Source: Chlamydiota bacterium
GTDB lineage: Bacteria; Chlamydiota; Chlamydiia; Chlamydiales; RGXB01
Direction: 5' to 3'
Length of the DNA stretch: 51,498 bases
Assembly (NCBI GenBank): GCA_947494155.1
Contig: CANLTW010000010.1
Span: 1 to 51,498, forward strand
Shown here: piece after piece, positions 30,001 to 42,000 of the stretch
Layout: each line of letters opens with the position of its first letter
Numbering within the stretch: the first letter of the stretch is position 1
Made by a program: the position numbers

Positions 30001-33000
30001 AAATGGAGGGGTTCAGAAAAAAGAATGTGATTAATTTTAAAATACTACCAGAAGTTGTCTTACCGTCCAAAGATTTATCTATAGAGTCAATCCAAGGCCA
30101 AAATGTAAATACATGAGCACAAGTGGTACATAAGGCCATAATCGGATTATTATGAAATACGGTCTTAATTAAAGCAAATACTGTTGAATTGACTAGCGTA
30201 GCTATGCCTGACAAACCCGCCCCACGTAATGCCGCTTTGCCACTAGCTCCGGTAATAACACGGATAGCAGCTGAGGCACAAGCGCCTTGCAAAGCTTTTT
30301 CCATGGTATCTTGGGGAAAGTGATCGAAAAATTGAGTTCTAAAATTACTTACTTGAATAGACATGATTTTTGCCTTTTATTAATGTTTAATATTTTATAA
30401 TGGATTTAACTAAATAACAATATTTATTTTTTAAAAAAAACTTTTTACATAACTTCTATAATAGAATGTTTTTTATAATCAATTTAAAGATTCGGTAATA
30501 TTTTTTCAATTAATTTGCTTAAAAAGTTATTACTATTTAAACTCGCTTAACCCAGTTTTTTTGTATTATAAAATACCCTACAAGGGATAAAAAAAAACAG
30601 CACCCTCTAAGATTTAGAACCTTAATGAATATCGTTTATCTAGACGATAATAAACGATTCCTTATCAAGATAAAATTTTTTTTAAAAAGGACGCCTTTCA
30701 TGCACTCCGTTACCACTACCTCATCATCTATTTTCCATCCAATTTTTCAGGACCAAGATAGCTTGGTTCATAAGGAACAAATTTTAGGTAAAAGACAGAA
30801 AGGTTTACAGGCTAATCTAGCCAACCTTTTAAAAGAGAAAAAAAAAGAAGAACGGGCTATTGGGCGAATTATTACAAAACAAAATAGCAGTTCGCAAGGT
30901 AACCAAGAAGTCGAGCCTCAACTGCTCAATGAGGCTGAGAAAAAAATGCATAAAATCAATAAGTTTTTTGCATTCGAAATACAATTATGACAAGCTTTGC
31001 ATATGTGTGCTATGATGCGGATGAAGCAGAAAATTATTGCCAAAATGACTTTGAAAGGCATCGAAGCTAACTCTTCTACAAAATCTATCGCGGACCAAAA
31101 GGAGCCTCCTGAAGAGAGAAGCTTGAGCCCCATAAACTCAATTAGATCCCTGGCCGGTTGCAAATTTCATGATCCTATCAGTTACGCAGGTTCTTTTCCC
31201 TTTAGACAACCCCTTTTCCACCCTTTAGATTTCCTAGCCCCCTCTTTGAGCATAGAACCTAAGAATTACCAAAAAAACTCTAAAAGCTCCTAAAGGGGTA
31301 AAAAATACCATTTTAAATAGCCCCACACAAGCTGGGGCTTGATACTACGAAGCCCTATCTCGGCTACATCCCATCGATACACATGGCCGTACCAAAGCTT
31401 TCCCCCTGATTAATTCCCCCCTAAGACTTGCCCTTGTGCTTTTTTTTCTGTTGGCTCGATTTATCGGATTTCTTTTTCATCATTTCGCCTTTTGAACTAA
31501 TCTATTTTTGATAAAATATTTACCAATAGTTTTCAAAGATTATTTTTACTCTCCTTAAAAAGGAAAGAATTTACACTACCTTTAAGATTTAAAAACAGGC
31601 TAGTTGAAGCCTGTTTTCATAACATGTTCCAAATCCAAAAAGTCTACTCGTTTCTTACTACATCTATTTTTGATATAATGTAATTGCGATCGCCCAATTT
31701 TTCCAAATCAGAAGGGTATATAAGAACTTTATACTCTTTCAAAAGTGACGGAACTCTTGAAAAATTAGAATCAGGCCGAATTAGGCAGTCAAATTGGAAA
31801 AGGGAAAAAAAATCCTCAATGACGTTTAAGTTTTGCCGATTTTTAGAGGTTCTATAATGGACGGAAAAAGGTGCTGTTGCAATATTTTTTATATAATTCT
31901 CAATATCAGTAGCAATGACATTTGGCTCAGGATCATCAGTAAAAATATGAAAATAAAGTTCTCTGTCTGGATAAATATTTATTAAAGATATAAGAGCCTC
32001 ATGATAAAATTCTAGGGGTGGTACATTGTTTGGTGCAGATCGAATACAATCTTCAGCATCGAAACCTCTTCCAGTTCTTGCGTGTACTGCGACAGTTATT
32101 TTATCTAAAGGACAATGACAAAGTTTTATAGCTTTTATCGGCCTTAACATTTTTAAAACAATCGATCTAAATCCTTGATCTTTCCAATCTATGTCAAAAT
32201 ATGACCATTTATCATTTCCGTTGGTGTAACAACTTCTTTTGCACCCGCTTTCAGGGAAATATGGGACAACGTAAAGGATGGAGCCAGATGAATTTTCCGG
32301 TCGCAAATCTGAGAGTCTAAAACCCTGAAAATGGGCATCTTGAAAGATTGTTTTATTAAAAATATTTTCTTTATGGGTATAACTATAATTACCTATTTTA
32401 GATTCCTTTTGACTAAGGACTAATGCGTCTGAATAGGGAAATGGTTTATATAAAAGCAGCATATTGTATTTATAAGAAATCCACTTCGCATGCAAATAAC
32501 TTAAAAGATTATCCCCAAACCGTCCCCCACTAAAATCATAAGTGACAGCAAAAGAATCTGTAAAACTTGGAAATGTTTCACTGATATCTTCGTTTTTGAT
32601 TACCTGGCTACTTGCTTTGGGTTCTAAGCTTTTCAAACCTGATTCCTGGGAGAACAGACAGGAAGAAGTCATCAGAACAAATACTGCCATTAACACGAAC
32701 AATAAACTATTTTTTCTCAACATAAAAACAACCGAAATTTAGCAAATTTAAAACCTTTTCAAACAGGGTAATATTGTAAAAACACCTTTTTAGTCTTATT
32801 TTAAAGACTAGAATCTAAACTATAGAATTTAAAAACAGGCTAGTTGAAGCCTGTTTTCTTAACATGTCCCAAATCCAAAAAGTCTACTCGTTTCTTACTA
32901 CATCTATTTTTGATATAATGTAATTGCGATCGCCCAATTTTTCCAAATCAGAAGGGTATATAAGAACTTTATACTCTTTCAAAAGTGACGGAACTCTTGA

Positions 33001-39000: not shown

Positions 39001-42000
39001 TCTTCGCAAAAAAGATCTGCAACCTCCTCATGTTGCAAAGCAGAATCTGATAGGGAATCCCCCATTTCGCAATTTGCAAATGTGCTTATTTTTTCTAAAG
39101 AAAAAAACATCTCATATCCAACAGTTGCAAAAGTGTAATTTAACGGGATGAATCCTAGATAAAAGTATTTTAAGAAATAACGCATTTGCATAAGTCCAAT
39201 TAACAGCTAATGAATATATCTATATAACATTAGATTGGAAAATAATCGAAATTAATTTTTTTTAATTAATGCAGATATACTTACTAAGGAATTTTGAGAC
39301 AGGAAACAGCGACTTCAATCGAAAGCCGGTCAAACGGGTGTACTTTTAGGAAACCCACTAGAATCGGCCTCATCTTAGGTGGTATTTGGTCACTATGGCT
39401 CAAAAGAATTTGCTGGTATTGACTTTGGATACCTATTTGATGCAATAGGGGGTTTTTTTCCATTTCAAGCAGAAAAGGATCTTTTAGATCTTTCCACATT
39501 TTTTTTGTAAAAAGGCTAAAAAGGAGAACCCCCAAAGAGAATACATCCCGCAGTTTTGGTCTAAAAACTGTCGAGAGCAAATGATCCAGGGGCATATAGG
39601 CCTCACTTCCGCAAACCACCGTAGAGGTTTCTTCCTTTGTTGCGCGACTGAAATTATGGAGGTAAAATTTGAGTATCCCCTCTTTTGTCAAGTCTACCAA
39701 AATATTTTCCGGCTTCAAATCCTGGTGGGCGATATTGATACGGTGGAGACACGCGACTAATTCGATGAGTTTCTCAGCTATATTTTGTTTTGCTTCCTCG
39801 CTTAGCTGCTCTGCGTTTTCTAACATTTGGAAGAGATCGCCGTAATAGGCAAAGGGGACAAGACACCCTTTTTCCAAGGGGGTGGTAAAGCATCGGACCT
39901 TCAGAGCTATCCCCTCTTTTGCCGCCTCTTCGTGGAGCCTTGCAGTTTCTTCATTATGAAGTTCTAAAAGCGGGCTGTTCCTAGTCAAAAGGGCATACTT
40001 TTTCCAAATCCTATCTTTAGATTCTTTGCATACCGCAAAAAGATCGCATTTAGTGGAGGATAATAGGGGGTCAAGATGGCGCATGAAAATTTCTTTCCCT
40101 TTGTCAGTCGGTACCTCTTGCCTCTCAATTTTAAAAACTTTTGATTCCACAGGACCTGTGTAGACTGTAAGCATGTGAGCGAAAGCATCGATTAAATCGT
40201 GGGAAACGGATATCGTCATAGAATTTGCCAAAAATCGGGCTATGATAAGTTAGTCGATCTTTAAAAAAAAGTAAAATCGACACTATTCGAGTCTAAGAGA
40301 AATTCCCTAAAGGTCGGTTACAGGCCCTTGGTATAAAAGATTCTCTGTTGGGCGTACTACGTACCATTGGCATATATTTAGCTTGCTTTTATGAACATCT
40401 AATTGCGGTCGTATCTTTTTTACCAAGTCATGAGCCACTTGATAACGATGTTGGACATCCCTAAAATTGCCTTCTAATTGTGTCATCGTGTAAGCAACTG
40501 CGATGGCGCCACTTCTCCCATAACCCGCTTTGCAGTGTAAGTAGACATCTTGTTCATTCAAATGATTTTTCACTGCTTCAACACCCTTATCTATTTCTTG
40601 AATACTCACAGCCTGAAAATCTGGTGACGGAAATCTATCAGTGGAATTCTTTACCCCTTCCCGAATTAAAGGCCGATGTGCCTCATAGTCCTCCAACATC
40701 GATACGTACCTGGTATTGGGTCTTTGGGAACAAAAAGCGGGCATACCCCCTAAATAGAGATGGGTTGTTTTAAACTTTTTATGGCCAACTTTCACAATTT
40801 TCTTTTGGATAAGATTGCTCCATTTATTTGAAGGCTTGATACAGCGAATAAGAGATCCAAGAAGGCTCAAATACAAAATAGCACGTTTTGCGACGAGTTT
40901 TATCTTTGAAACCAGTTCGGATTCGAATATCTTAGTAAAGATCCTTTTGGTTAAGGTTTTGGTCTTTTGGACTTTTGCGCCCACTGGACTTTCAACAGAT
41001 TTACTTGAGCTTGCTGCAGATATAACAGAACTCTCAAGAACTTTCCTTGGTTGATTTGATATAAGTATCTTGCATATTTCCAGGACTTTTTTAGTTGAAT
41101 CCTCTGCTGAAAGCTTTTCTCTATCCACTGAAGAAATGCTTGAGTCAGTAGACCATGGAAGCCTATACCCCCGGGCGACAAGGGTATCTAATAATTCTAA
41201 AGATTTTCTTAGATTAACGTACTTGGCCCTATCATAATCAAAAGGCTGGGCTACAAGTTCTGTTTTACATGGATTCATAATCTTAAGCCTTTTTTAGTTC
41301 TCAGGGTCATCCCTTACCCTAGTATTATATATAAATATATTTATTTTTTGAACTAAAAAGAATTTTTTATAAACTTTTAGGATCTGAGCCGCTTAATTTC
41401 GGTTTATGCTTTTCTCCATTTATACTTGGCATATACTTAACCCACAGAAAATTAACAAATTAGATTTTCATCACACCAATCAAGCGAAATTTTTAAAAAT
41501 ATTATTAACTATTTTTGGAGGTTTATGCTAAAAAATGATATAATAGTCTTCGTAGCCTTAATAAAAGGCGCAATTTTTCTCAAAAAGAGGGGTAGCAAAT
41601 GACATCACCACTAGGTCTTTCACCGTTTTCTTCGCAACAGATTGCACAATTGAATGAGCAACATAGCGCCGAGGTCTCTAGACTTGATTTAACGAAAGAA
41701 AAAATCGAAGCTGTAGCAGAATGGATGATCATAAACGTTAGAGGGGATGGCAGATGCCAAACATGGGCTTTAATTGCAGCAGACCTAGACTTACTCCCCG
41801 AAAAAAATGTACTTAGTCAATCTCAAACTTTTTCTCTAAATTTTCCCGGAGGATACGAAGATATAAGCCGTAGCCCAGATTCCGGCTTGAAAGGTAAAAA
41901 AGACGAATTCGATCAAATGATTCGATCTGCTTTTCAAGAAAGTTTTAAGACAAAAACACCTTTTTTACCACTTTTAAAAGAGCTACCCGAACTAGGTATT

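What a model noticed while it worked through the whole genome (the two positions that open the first line are those of the whole stretch)
31644..41278. Nine-gene operon of leader-bearing glycan enzymes with a kinase and a phosphatase
Nine co-directional genes (g00921-g00929) encode three members of a large family without any Pfam domain, an RXYLT1-like and a DUF6492 protein, two further orphans, a eukaryote-like Ser/Thr kinase and a dual-specificity-phosphatase-like protein; most of the first seven start with a hydrophobic leader. I read the locus as an exported assembly line for a complex glycan built from Golgi-type enzymes, with its own phospho-switch. It would give a function to an uncharacterised family of more than 700 proteins.
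Evidence so far: genes.tsv: all on the minus strand, 31644-41278. Call 43: g00921 has 700 relatives at E<=1e-3; of the 120 listed two carry a Pfam domain (GT2 domains on one, Methyltransf_21 on one) as longer fusions, the rest none; source names include Chlamydiales, Waddliaceae, Parachlamydiaceae and Verrucomicrobiota MAGs and once a glycosyltransferase label. Call 44: 30 sequences, invariant H214, R216, G218 and T262-D263, a pattern that I recall from GT11/GT23/POFUT fucosyltransferases. pfam.tsv: RXYLT1_C on g00924 (9e-8), DUF6492 on g00923, Pkinase on g00928 (2e-23), Tc-R-P on g00929 (1e-8; DSPc in relatives.tsv, call 89). Call 36: g00927 weak End_beta_barrel 1e-6. Leaders in call 148. A related cluster [...]
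(Added by a program. Inside this text positions count along the whole contig: contig position 1 is position 1 of the stretch shown here. "Call 12" and the like, gene names such as g00115 and contig names such as C1 are that model's own, and its searches are not shown. The text may have been shortened before it was handed on; [...] marks where a part breaks off. The agent that wrote the report below was given it as the finding of a first reader that could run no searches.)

Follow-up and report, generated by a model that had tools for sequence, protein, structure and literature searches.

The report
Exported giant-virus-type sugar-transferase cluster
A small lake-water chlamydia carries six neighbouring sugar-adding enzymes of kinds otherwise seen in giant viruses and the Golgi, each with an export signal, which suggests that it builds a sugar structure outside its own cytoplasm; the kinase and phosphatase next door look like a separate unit.

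Summary
The nine minus-strand genes are real, but they are a composite, not a shown nine-gene operon.

The core, 31644-38102, is six glycosyltransferase genes from four families:
- Three paralogues of an unnamed sister family of GT11 fucosyltransferases. Fold Z is 15.1 to NodZ; hhalign to GT11 gives 98.4%.
- A GT114 enzyme like chlorovirus A075L (E 1.7e-34, catalytic residues kept).
- A GT8-like GT-A.
- A DUF6492 protein.

These families travel together. In 56 loci anchored on the GT11-like gene, mostly Chlamydiota with some Dependentiae, the others occur in 19, 19 and 16. The kinase and phosphatase occur in 0. Three of the families also cluster in giant viruses.

Bacterial copies carry Sec-type leaders and viral copies mostly do not. 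The same genome has a leader-bearing 4,6-dehydratase and 3,5-epimerase/4-reductase pair.

Best reading: glycan assembly outside the cytoplasm. The site and the sugars are inferred.

The kinase has NFS in place of DFG and sits elsewhere in congeners, so no phospho-switch is supported.

The parts
37098..38102 (-). g926: GT11-related fucosyltransferase-fold glycosyltransferase (unnamed family). A likely start at the internal ATG (M12) gives the leader MKTSYLFTLCLYSIFSLTLYRPVHA followed by DE.
   Evidence: 44% identical to g921. Member of alignment A1, whose model matches fucosyltransferases and whose profile matches GT11. Leader read.
35999..37009 (-). g925: GT-A fold, GT8-like glycosyltransferase with a leader. 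Its family is shared with giant viruses.
   Evidence: AF2 pLDDT 94.6. Foldseek top hits are XXYLT1 at 5.5e-8 and glycogenin. VIA Z is 14.8 to LARGE1 and 14.5 to glycogenin-2. 472 relatives and 158 viral loci. H136, E138 and D140 are invariant.
35109..36002 (-). g924: GT114 (PBCV-1 A075L-like) inverting GT-B glycosyltransferase with a leader.
   Evidence: phmmer E 1.7e-34 to PDB 8q8i/8avq/8asa. D91, R173, R218, N163 and N212 align with Asp73, Arg158, Arg208, Asn148 and Asn202 of A075L.
34187..35104 (-). g923: DUF6492 protein with an invariant D157-x-D159 and a leader. A presumed GT-A-type transferase; the fold was not tested.
   Evidence: Pfam DUF6492 26.1 bits against a cut-off of 22.9. Invariant columns in a 23-row alignment. 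Recurs beside the other families.
32884..33984 (-). g922: second GT11-related paralogue. Lipobox-like IASC at the end of the leader. The likely start is the ATG at M8.
   Evidence: 72% identical to g921, with the alignment starting at M8. Lipobox pattern found.
31644..32723 (-). g921: third GT11-related paralogue, the protein that was modelled.
   Evidence: AF2 pLDDT 87.6. VIA Z is 15.1 to NodZ, 14.5 to AtFUT1 and POFUT1, and 14.0 to FUT8; the next fold, GT9, is at 9.2.
31580..31879 (.). 300-nt direct repeat, with its second copy at 32820-33119 (98% identical). It covers the 3' ends of g921 and g922 and 64 nt beyond. It marks a recent duplication or gene conversion.
38226..39191 (-). g927: lineage-restricted orphan with two small beta-barrel-like repeats. 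It is adjacent to the conserved module but not part of it.
   Evidence: Found in 2 of 41 related genomes. Only sub-threshold Pfam hits. Atlas best score 0.84.
39284..40231 (-). g928: eukaryote-like protein-kinase fold with HQD and LKPEN kept, but NFS in place of DFG. No leader.
   Evidence: Pkinase 79.7 bits. Alignment of 6 orthologues. Lies in other contexts in congeners.
40307..41278 (-). g929: dual-specificity-phosphatase-like protein with HCKAGYGRS (a CX5R motif). No leader.
   Evidence: Tc-R-P 33.2 bits against a cut-off of 27. Motif read. Adjacent to the kinase in G006, and as broken pieces in G005.

Best explanation
The locus is a composite of three units.

1. The core, 31644-38102, is a six-gene glycosylation module made of four families. 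These are three paralogues of an unnamed sister family of GT11 fucosyltransferases, a GT114 A075L-type inverting transferase, a GT8-like GT-A, and a DUF6492 protein with a DxD motif. The four families are inherited together in Chlamydiota and Dependentiae. Three of them are also neighbours in giant viruses, where A075L-type enzymes help build capsid glycans.

2. Every bacterial copy starts with a short Sec-type signal peptide. In most relatives the catalytic domain begins a few residues after it. I therefore infer that the enzymes work outside the bacterial cytoplasm, in the periplasm or the lumen of the host-derived vacuole. There they would add 6-deoxyhexose (fucose- or rhamnose-like), pentose and hexose residues stepwise to an envelope or vacuolar acceptor. 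The nucleotide sugars would reach that space from the host, or be remodelled there by the genome's own leader-bearing 4,6-dehydratase and 3,5-epimerase/4-reductase.

3. g927 is a strain-level orphan. The phosphatase and the kinase-like protein form a separate, genus-specific pair without leaders, probably host-directed.

Shown: the folds, the homologies, the conserved catalytic residues, the gene neighbourhoods, and the presence or absence of leaders.

Inferred: that export happens, which compartment is involved, and the donor sugars, acceptor and product.
For: Enzyme identity:
- g921 model: pLDDT 87.6.
- All 43 best PDB entries by VIA are fucosyltransferases: NodZ Z 15.1 (rmsd 3.6, 236 aligned), AtFUT1 14.5, POFUT1 14.5, FUT8 14.0, POFUT2 13.1. 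GT9 follows at 9.2.
- hhalign of the 101-row family profile against 13 chlamydial proteins chosen only by Pfam's GT11 model gives 98.4%, E 1.1e-14, over 253 columns. GGRFGDNL aligns with GQLGNQL, VAxHxR with VAVHVR, FTDD with FSD, and SNFS with SNSSFSWW.
- Of 29 longer relatives scanned, 7 carry a Pfam domain: GT2, GT34 or Gly_transf_sug domains, or methyltransferase domains (FkbM-type in three).
- g924: E 1.7e-34 to A075L, with the catalytic base and both phosphate-binding arginines kept.
- g925: GT8-like GT-A fold.

Module:
- Of 56 genome loci anchored on the GT11-like gene, 19 hold a g924-like gene, 19 a g925-like gene and 16 a g923-like gene. The order g923-FT-g925-g924 recurs.
- Of 78 giant-virus loci anchored on a g925-like gene, 46 hold a g924-like gene and 38 a g923-like gene.
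- Recurrent neighbours elsewhere are further glycosyltransferases, FkbM methyltransferases and a GDP-mannose 4,6-dehydratase.

Leaders (a hydrophobic N-terminal extension of 15 or more residues before the domain):
- g925 family: 54 of 59 non-viral against 5 of 64 viral.
- g924 family: 23 of 24 bacterial against 0 of 23 viral.
- g923 family: 16 of 18 bacterial against 6 of 21 viral.
- By a looser measure: GT11-like family 91 of 101, and canonical chlamydial GT11 11 of 13.

Sugar-nucleotide enzymes:
- Same genome, contig C4: a 4,6-dehydratase and a 3,5-epimerase/4-reductase both start with signal-peptide-like leaders.
- 108 of 114 single-domain relatives of the reductase do too.
- A GspF-type secretion platform gene is present.

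Expression: contigs from 4 lake metatranscriptome libraries lie on g922 to g929, and one bridges g924/g923.

Precedent: C. trachomatis makes glycogen in the inclusion lumen with secreted enzymes and imported UDP-glucose (PMC4829429, abstract read).
Against: - No export, cleavage or activity was measured. I had no signal-peptide predictor. My loose measure% of this genome's long ORFs leader-like, so the case rests on the domain-anchored contrast with viral homologues.
- Leloir transferases normally need cytoplasmic donors.
- No nucleotide-sugar transporter was found in this genome. There is only one weak DMT-type hit, and one of the three searches had no working control.
- The exported reductase would need NADPH outside the cytoplasm.
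- The genome also has cytoplasmic-type sugar-nucleotide genes in the same window. The RmlB at 7705-8649 has no leader.
- No gmd equivalog was found, so GDP-fucose as donor is unsupported here.
- Two acceptor-pocket residues of A075L, Thr112 and His122, are Glu131 and Ser141 in g924, so the acceptor probably differs.
- The DUF6492 fold is untested, and its profile did not match the g925 family.
- RNA-library contigs may include DNA, and they carry no strand information.
Confidence: 0.55

Rival explanations
1. This is a conventional surface-polysaccharide or LPS-decoration cluster. The hydrophobic N-termini would be membrane anchors holding the catalytic domains at the cytoplasmic face of the inner membrane. 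There they would use the bacterium's own nucleotide sugars on a lipid carrier that is later flipped.
For: Leloir enzymes normally work in the cytoplasm. The window holds a leaderless dTDP-glucose 4,6-dehydratase, a nucleotidyltransferase-family protein and an RmlD-like protein at 6448-8649. UDP-glucose dehydrogenase and a nucleotidyltransferase exist elsewhere in the genome. A GDP-mannose dehydratase lies beside the family in 3 other loci.
Against: The hydrophobic cores are short. In g924 and g925 the uncharged run is 12 residues. They are preceded by Lys/Arg and followed by Ala/Gly-type ends and acidic residues, and in many relatives the first strand of the domain follows within about 5 residues. 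This is the pattern of cleaved signal peptides, not of N-out anchors. No flippase, polymerase, ABC exporter or polyprenyl-phosphate transferase was seen among the recurrent neighbours. The neighbouring dehydratase in a Babeliales locus itself has a leader.
Confidence: 0.2
2. The enzymes are host-directed. After leaving the bacterium they would enter the host's ER or Golgi-derived membranes and remodel host glycoproteins or glycolipids, acting as mimics of host Golgi enzymes rather than decorating the bacterium.
For: The closest structural relatives are eukaryotic luminal enzymes: POFUT1/2, FUT8, AtFUT1, LARGE1, XXYLT1 and UGGT. The families are confined to bacteria that live inside protists and to giant viruses.
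Against: Nothing shows passage beyond the periplasm. One paralogue has a lipobox-like IASC that would tether it to a bacterial membrane. The giant-virus counterparts decorate the virus's own capsid (PMC11571054 and PMC9614988, passages read).
Confidence: 0.15
3. All nine genes form one operon, and the kinase and phosphatase switch the glycan assembly line on and off by phosphorylation.
For: All nine genes are co-directional, with gaps of at most 202 nt. A promoter-like site lies upstream of g929 at 41352-41324, although promoter-like sites are no more frequent here than in shuffles.
Against: The kinase and phosphatase are found in 0 of 56 loci that hold the glycosyltransferase families. In G001 the kinase orthologue lies with no glycosyltransferase within the 20 kb read. 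In G005 it is intact beside broken phosphatase pieces, while only a 33-residue fragment of the GT11-like family was found. Asn replaces the DFG aspartate in 6 of 6 orthologues. The two proteins lack leaders, so they would be in a different compartment from their supposed targets.
Confidence: 0.05

Closest known systems
GT11 alpha-1,2-fucosyltransferases (Pfam PF01531), within the wider fucosyltransferase superfamily (GT23 NodZ/FUT8, GT37 AtFUT1, GT65 POFUT1, GT68 POFUT2)
   Same: Same GT-B-type fold (Z 13-15). Profile-profile homology of 98.4%. There are counterparts of the N-terminal G-x-x-G-N/D-x-L motif, the H-x-R motif, the (S/T)DD motif and the C-terminal SN(S)FS motif.
   Different: No member passes Pfam's GT11 model. 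Among 101 members the best GT11 hit is one at E 0.053 and the best NodZ hits are three at 0.012 or weaker. The motif reads H-x-R-x-G-G-G-F-D rather than the HxRRGD I recall for GT11. Nearly all members have a signal peptide. Donor and linkage are unknown.
PBCV-1 A075L, founding member of CAZy GT114: a beta-xylosyltransferase that puts Xyl on O4 of Fuc in the capsid N-glycan core (PMC11571054)
   Same: E 1.7e-34 over about 205 residues. The catalytic base Asp73, the phosphate-binding Arg158 and Arg208, and Asn148 and Asn202 are all kept.
   Different: g924 has an N-terminal leader of about 20 residues, whereas A075L is described as soluble. Thr112 and His122 of the acceptor pocket are Glu131 and Ser141 in g924.
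Giant-virus glycan gene clusters (chlorovirus Vp54 N-glycan machinery; mimivirus fibril glycans)
   Same: The same three families (g925-like, GT114, DUF6492) lie side by side in 46 and 38 of 78 viral loci. Methyltransferase and further glycosyltransferase partners also recur.
   Different: The viral enzymes lack leaders (PMC9614988 passage) and act in the host cytoplasm. Here the genes are bacterial, carry leaders, and are joined by the GT11-sister family. In a quick tree of the g925 family, the 23 bacterial rows separate from the 66 viral rows with support 89.
Luminal glycogen synthesis of Chlamydia trachomatis (PMC4829429)
   Same: A chlamydia places Leloir-type sugar enzymes outside its cytoplasm and feeds them with a host nucleotide sugar imported into the vacuole.
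   Different: There the enzymes leave by type 3 secretion and make glycogen. Here the signals are Sec-type, the families are different, and nothing has been measured.
GT8 / GT24 retaining GT-A enzymes (LARGE1 xylosyltransferase domain, glycogenin, LgtC, UGGT)
   Same: g925 shares their fold: Z 14.8 to 13.8, with 210-228 residues aligned.
   Different: No Pfam hit. The metal-site motif is H-x-E-x-D rather than DxD. Sequence identity is 9-15%.

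Membership tests
GT11 (Pfam PF01531) | Scores over the curated Pfam cut-off | tested here: not met
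   0 of 3 window paralogues at E<=0.1. Of 101 family members, one weak hit at 0.053.
GT11 (Pfam PF01531) | Homology to bona fide GT11 sequences at profile level | tested here: met
   hhalign gives 98.4%, E 1.1e-14, over 253 columns, against 13 proteins picked by the Pfam model alone. A second comparison with viral GT11-type ORFs gives 98.2%, but those rows were picked through the family profile.
Fucosyltransferase superfamily (GT11/23/37/65/68) | GT-B-variant fold of NodZ, FUT8 and POFUT | tested here: met
   VIA Z 15.1 to 12.4 for 43 of the top 43 entries; the next fold is at 9.2. Foldseek E 2e-7 to POFUT1.
Fucosyltransferase superfamily (GT11/23/37/65/68) | Conserved Arg of the H-x-R motif at the start of the C-terminal domain | tested here: met
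   H214 and R216 are invariant in 101 rows. They align with H and R of the GT11 VAVHVR motif. The role of this Arg in GDP binding is recalled, not tested.
Fucosyltransferase superfamily (GT11/23/37/65/68) | Uses GDP-fucose | not testable with these tools
   No gmd equivalog in this genome. A GDP-mannose dehydratase lies beside the family in 3 other loci.
GT114 (A075L) | Sequence similarity to A075L over the catalytic region | tested here: met
   E 1.7e-34, 122.5 bits, query residues 83-287.
GT114 (A075L) | Catalytic base Asp73 and phosphate-binding Arg158 and Arg208 | tested here: met
   D91, R173 and R218 of g924 align with them (alignment; residue roles from PMC11571054).
GT114 (A075L) | Acceptor-pocket residues Thr112 and His122 | tested here: not met
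   They align with E131 and S141. The alignment does not reach Lys34 or Asp36.
GT8-like GT-A | GT-A fold closest to GT8 and GT24 enzymes | tested here: met
GT8-like GT-A | Pfam Glyco_transf_8 match and a DxD motif | tested here: not met
   No Pfam family at E<=0.1. The invariant motif is H136-x-E138-x-D140.
DUF6492 (PF20102) | Scores over the curated cut-off | tested here: met
   26.1 bits against 22.9.
Eukaryote-like Ser/Thr protein kinase | Pkinase domain with a catalytic-loop Asp and Asn | tested here: met
   79.7 bits against 31.7. HQDLKPEN read.
Eukaryote-like Ser/Thr protein kinase | Mg-binding Asp of the DFG motif | tested here: not met
   The motif is H-N-F-S/T/N in 6 of 6 orthologues.
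Dual-specificity phosphatase | HCX5R(S/T) active-site loop | tested here: met
   HCKAGYGRS in g929. Tc-R-P 33.2 bits against 27; DSPc 31.7 bits, below its cut-off of 33.5.
Single operon of nine genes | One transcript, or tight coupling throughout | tested here: inconclusive
   Only g925/g924/g923 overlap or abut. One RNA-library contig bridges g924/g923. The consensus scans were uninformative.

The most novel reading that the evidence does not exclude
Chlamydiota and Dependentiae export a whole Golgi-like or giant-virus-like glycosylation pathway into the periplasm or the host-derived vacuole. The pathway holds at least four glycosyltransferase families together with nucleotide-sugar-converting enzymes (a 4,6-dehydratase, a 3,5-epimerase/4-reductase, and in some genomes a GDP-mannose dehydratase). 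It would run there on nucleotide sugars and cofactors taken from the host. The vacuole would then be a bacterium-run glycosylation compartment, and the unnamed family of over 1000 clusters would be its 6-deoxyhexose transferase.
Probability: 0.35. Interest if true: 0.85.

Novelty: new variant of a known kind. Interest (0 to 1): 0.7.

Why it matters
It gives a tested fold and a homology assignment to a family of more than a thousand sequence clusters that has no Pfam model.

It shows that a four-family glycosylation module is shared between giant viruses and two unrelated lineages of bacteria that live inside protists.

It also raises a concrete, testable oddity. In the bacteria, the enzymes carry secretion signals, and so do enzymes that make their sugar donors. 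That conflicts with the usual rule that such enzymes work in the cytoplasm.

If export is real, environmental chlamydiae remodel sugars in the space they share with the host. That would bear on how they are recognised, how they attach, and how they exploit host metabolites.

I found no paper describing this. They cover only the held open-access library.

Tried and rejected
Searches that found nothing useful:
- Sequence-profile searches of the PDB with the GT11-like family, the g925 family and the DUF6492 family found nothing meaningful. g923 alone found nothing.
- g927: the PDB phmmer search gave only E>0.1 hits. The Atlas best score was 0.84.
- The DUF6492 profile against the g925 family gave hhalign probability 1%, not significant.
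- The GT11-like family in viral contigs: one search pattern, no confirmed relative. Its profile gave only weak hits in the giant-virus loci (best 4.1e-7), and two of those hits are Pfam GT11 proteins.

Gene content of this genome:
- Nucleotide-sugar transporter families: PF03151 and PF08449 gave one sub-threshold DMT-type hit. PF04142 gave none, but its control rang nowhere, so that search says nothing.
- GDP-mannose dehydratase: the PF16363 hits are dTDP-glucose-dehydratase-like by NCBIfam.

Operon structure and expression:
- Promoter and terminator scan: 22 promoter-like sites against 33.4 +/- 7.5 in shuffles, and 13 terminator-like sites against 8.9 +/- 3.6. This is no guide to operon structure.
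- RNA-library contigs left some parts uncovered (most of 39441-42000). No silent control stretch could be laid, because the cap was one call.

Methods that fell short:
- My first, loose leader measure marks 276 of 905 long ORFs of the genome (30%). It also picks up the first strand of viral proteins. I replaced it with a domain-anchored measure.
- g924 tree: the bacterial rows were not already one clade in the quick tree, and the constrained test did not finish. The g925 tree is a quick tree only.
- g927 compared between two strains shows 10 synonymous and 12 non-synonymous codon differences, too few to judge selection.

Earlier notes of this scan: none on this family by sequence.

Full report
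**What is there**

Nine minus-strand ORFs occupy 31644-41278 exactly as reported.
- The Pfam hits are reproduced: DUF6492 on g923, RXYLT1_C and a sub-threshold Exostosin hit on g924, Pkinase on g928, and Tc-R-P/DSPc on g929.
- g927 has only sub-threshold End_beta_barrel and E1_FCCH hits. g921, g922, g925 and g926 have nothing.
- g921 and g922 are 72% identical. Their last 300 nt, including 64 nt past the stop, are 98% identical, which marks a recent duplication or conversion. g926 is 44% identical to g921.
- Only g925/g924 (4-nt overlap) and g924/g923 (4-nt gap) are tightly coupled. The other gaps are 75-202 nt (coordinates).
- The host genome has 1.41 Mb in 24 contigs and is 97.6% complete. 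Named relatives of its proteins are chlamydial.

**The three paralogues**

- phmmer against 1.84 billion cluster representatives finds 1180 relatives at E<=1e-3.
- An alignment of 101 of them has R68, G70, F185, H214, R216, D263 and D304 invariant.
- None of the 101 passes any Pfam model. Three give weak NodZ hits (best 0.012) and one a weak GT11 hit (0.053). A profile search of PDB sequences found nothing.
- An AlphaFold model from that alignment (pLDDT 87.6) matches fucosyltransferases only at the top. Foldseek E is 2e-7 to POFUT1.
- By VIA-align, NodZ scores Z 15.1 (rmsd 3.6, 236 residues), AtFUT1 14.5, POFUT1 14.5, FUT8 14.0 and POFUT2 13.1. That is 43 of the first 43 entries, before GT9 heptosyltransferases at 9.2.
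- For an independent sequence test I took 13 chlamydial proteins picked only by Pfam's GT11 model. hhalign of the family profile against them gives 98.4%, E 1.1e-14, over 253 columns, with the motifs in register.
- Of 29 longer relatives scanned, 7 carry a Pfam domain: GT2, GT34 or Gly_transf_sug domains, or methyltransferase domains (FkbM-type in three).
- The family is therefore a sister of GT11 inside the fucosyltransferase superfamily. It is not a member by Pfam's criterion, and its donor is untested.

**The other enzymes**

- g924 matches the crystal-structure sequences of chlorovirus PBCV-1 A075L at E 1.7e-34. A075L founded CAZy GT114 and adds beta-xylose to O4 of fucose, with Asp73 as base and Arg158 and Arg208 on the phosphates (PMC11571054; abstract and passages of sections 3 and 4 read).
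- In the printed alignment these residues are D91, R173 and R218 of g924, and Asn148 and Asn202 are N163 and N212. Thr112 and His122 of the acceptor pocket are E131 and S141, so the acceptor may differ.
- g925 has 472 listed relatives without Pfam domains. Its model (pLDDT 94.6) is a GT-A fold closest to GT8 and GT24 enzymes. Foldseek gives XXYLT1 at 5.5e-8 and glycogenin. VIA gives LARGE1 Z 14.8, glycogenin-2 14.5 and UGGT 14.0. H136, E138 and D140 are invariant.
- g923 has an invariant D157-x-D159. Its fold was not tested, and its profile does not match the g925 family.

**What belongs together**

A scan of one genome per species found 56 loci with the GT11-like gene.
- By record title, 34 are chlamydial, 4 are Babeliales/Dependentiae, 1 is labelled Verrucomicrobia, 1 is labelled Pseudomonadota, and 16 are unclassified.
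- Within 8 kb, a g924-like gene occurs in 19 loci, a g925-like gene in 19, a g923-like gene in 16, g927 in 1, and the kinase and phosphatase in 0.
- The order g923-FT-g925-g924 recurs, for example in L180, L202 and L218.
- A 16-kb neighbourhood is under 1% of such genomes, so this is far above chance (inference).
- The g925 family has 158 confirmed loci in viral contigs, many named GVMAG. In the 78 kept, a g924-like gene lies within 6 kb in 46 and a g923-like gene in 38.
- Other recurrent neighbours in the bacterial loci are Gly_transf_sug, GT2 and NodZ-like transferases, FkbM and other methyltransferases, and a GDP-mannose 4,6-dehydratase.
- In a quick tree of the g925 family, the 23 bacterial rows separate from the 66 viral rows with support 89. 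The tree is unrooted, so it gives no direction of transfer.

**Kinase, phosphatase and g927**

- Kinase orthologues (53-80% identity) exist in 6 of 6 congeners.
- In G001 the orthologue lies beside other genes, with no glycosyltransferase in the 20 kb read.
- In G005 it is intact next to broken phosphatase pieces, while only a 33-residue fragment of the GT11-like family was found in that genome.
- The phosphatase-kinase adjacency is kept in G006.
- In all 6 orthologues the DFG motif reads H-N-F-S/T/N, while HQD and the catalytic Asn are kept. The protein is therefore an atypical kinase or a pseudokinase.
- The genome has several further kinase-like genes, one of them in this window at 5013-6191.
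- g929 has an intact HCKAGYGRS loop.
- g927 was found in 2 of 41 related genomes.
- Neither the kinase nor the phosphatase has a leader.
- I read them as a separate pair and not as a switch for the enzymes.

**The leaders**

- g921 to g926 begin with a Lys/Arg-bearing start followed by an uncharged hydrophobic run of 12-22 residues. The run ends in ...GFSA/DR (g924)...PVHA/DE (g926)...LVEA/TN (g923)...IFG/KE (g925), and a lipobox-like IASC in g922.
- Relatives look like textbook signal peptides, with the first strand of the domain a few residues later.
- My loose measure is too permissive (30% of the genome's long ORFs). I therefore measured the N-terminal extension before the first conserved strand.
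- g925 family: 54 of 59 non-viral members have a hydrophobic extension of 15 or more residues (median 24), against 5 of 64 viral ones (median 7).
- g924 family: 23 of 24 bacterial against 0 of 23 viral. g923 family: 16 of 18 bacterial against 6 of 21 viral, the viral cases being mostly N-terminal fusions.
- A review states that the PBCV-1 enzymes lack signal peptides (PMC9614988, passage read).
- Canonical GT11 proteins of this order also have leaders: 11 of 13 by the loose measure.

**Donor supply**

- The window has a leaderless dTDP-glucose 4,6-dehydratase (393 bits against a cut-off of 365) with nucleotidyltransferase-family and RmlD-like neighbours at 6448-8649.
- On contig C4 a second 4,6-dehydratase-like gene and an adjacent 3,5-epimerase/4-reductase-like gene both start with signal-peptide-like leaders...PLFSA/DE and ...RFLSA/TL.
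- Of 114 single-domain relatives of that reductase among the 120 best hits, 108 have such a leader directly before the Rossmann motif. Named ones are Chlamydiae and Dependentiae. Six longer or motif-less rows were left out.
- In a Babeliales locus the GDP-mannose dehydratase next to the GT11-like gene also has a leader, and so does an SDR in a Rhabdochlamydiaceae locus.
- No gmd equivalog and no clear nucleotide-sugar transporter was found in this genome.
- A GspF-type platform gene is present.

**Expression**

Fourteen DNA runs from lake and fresh water hold most of the stretch. Six metatranscriptome runs hold 16-25% of its sampled words. Contigs of four of those RNA libraries lie on g922 to g929, and one (34853-35190) bridges g924/g923. 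Contigs give no strand, and DNA carry-over cannot be excluded.

**Reading**

The enzyme identities, the module and the leader contrast are shown. Everything that follows in this section is inference: that the leaders cause export, that the work is done in the periplasm or vacuole lumen, and that host-derived nucleotide sugars are used.
- The inference has a precedent in the luminal glycogen synthesis of C. trachomatis (PMC4829429, abstract read).
- From memory, not from any call: chlamydiae import host nucleotides across their envelope, so host nucleotides do reach the periplasm. Also from memory: POFUT1 is a soluble ER-luminal enzyme, and UDP-xylose synthase faces the Golgi lumen.
- The product is unknown. 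A GT11-type enzyme next to an A075L-type enzyme suggests a 6-deoxyhexose carrying a pentose, but the changed acceptor pocket and the missing gmd keep this open.

**Literature**

No paper in the held library mentions DUF6492. Searches that combined Chlamydiae or Dependentiae with glycosyltransferases, signal peptides, exostosin, giant viruses or UDP-rhamnose found nothing on this subject. PMC2824669 and PMC3220709 were checked by passages and do not bear on it. Supplements were not consulted.

Noticed in passing
G000 contig C4, locus L160 4113-5237 (-) and 3155-4096 (-): Adjacent 4,6-dehydratase-like and 3,5-epimerase/4-reductase-like genes both begin with signal-peptide-like leaders. 108 of 114 single-domain relatives of the reductase do too. 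Leader-bearing nucleotide-sugar enzymes are unusual for bacteria.
   Followed up: partly
L194 6584-7792 (-) and L176 14161-15222 (-): A GDP-mannose 4,6-dehydratase in a Babeliales MAG and an SDR in a Rhabdochlamydiaceae MAG both lie next to GT11-like genes. Both have hydrophobic N-terminal leaders before the Rossmann motif.
   Followed up: partly
G000 contig C7, locus L016 1219-2043 (-): A fourth fucosyltransferase-type gene of 274 aa. Pfam GT11 gives 21.2 bits, just under the cut-off of 23.9. It has a hydrophobic N-terminus.
   Followed up: partly
G000 contig C13 12717-12887 (+): A fragment of a GT11-like gene (56% identity over 57 residues, with a TGA stop nearby). Similar fragments occur in congeners G003 and G005, so the family seems to be decaying in part of the genus.
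   Followed up: no
window 6448-8649 (-): A leaderless dTDP-glucose 4,6-dehydratase (over the NCBIfam cut-off), a cytidylyl/adenylyltransferase-family protein and an RmlD-like protein. Together they look like a cytoplasmic 6-deoxyhexose pathway, 23 kb from the module.
   Followed up: partly
window 5013-6191 (-), and G000 contigs C1, C9, C15, C3: This genus has a family of eukaryote-like kinase genes. The g928 query gives 7 matches in this genome. In G001 the window's 392-aa copy has an orthologue (60% identity) beside the g928 orthologue.
   Followed up: no
L146-L159 (canonical GT11 genes of the same order): Canonical Pfam-GT11 fucosyltransferases occur in 33 of 121 genomes of the order. Most of the 13 I read start with signal-peptide-like leaders.
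   Followed up: partly
L028, L034, L037, L038 and other giant-virus loci: g925-like, GT114-like and DUF6492-like genes lie head to tail in giant-virus contigs. Some GT114-like ORFs there are long N-terminal fusions. GT11-type ORFs lie 2-3 kb away in L060 and L133.
   Followed up: partly
window 19234-20259 (+) and 28336-29040 (-): A Legionella-type major outer-membrane-protein homologue and an OmpA-like beta-barrel lie in a window otherwise rich in ORFs without Pfam matches.
   Followed up: no
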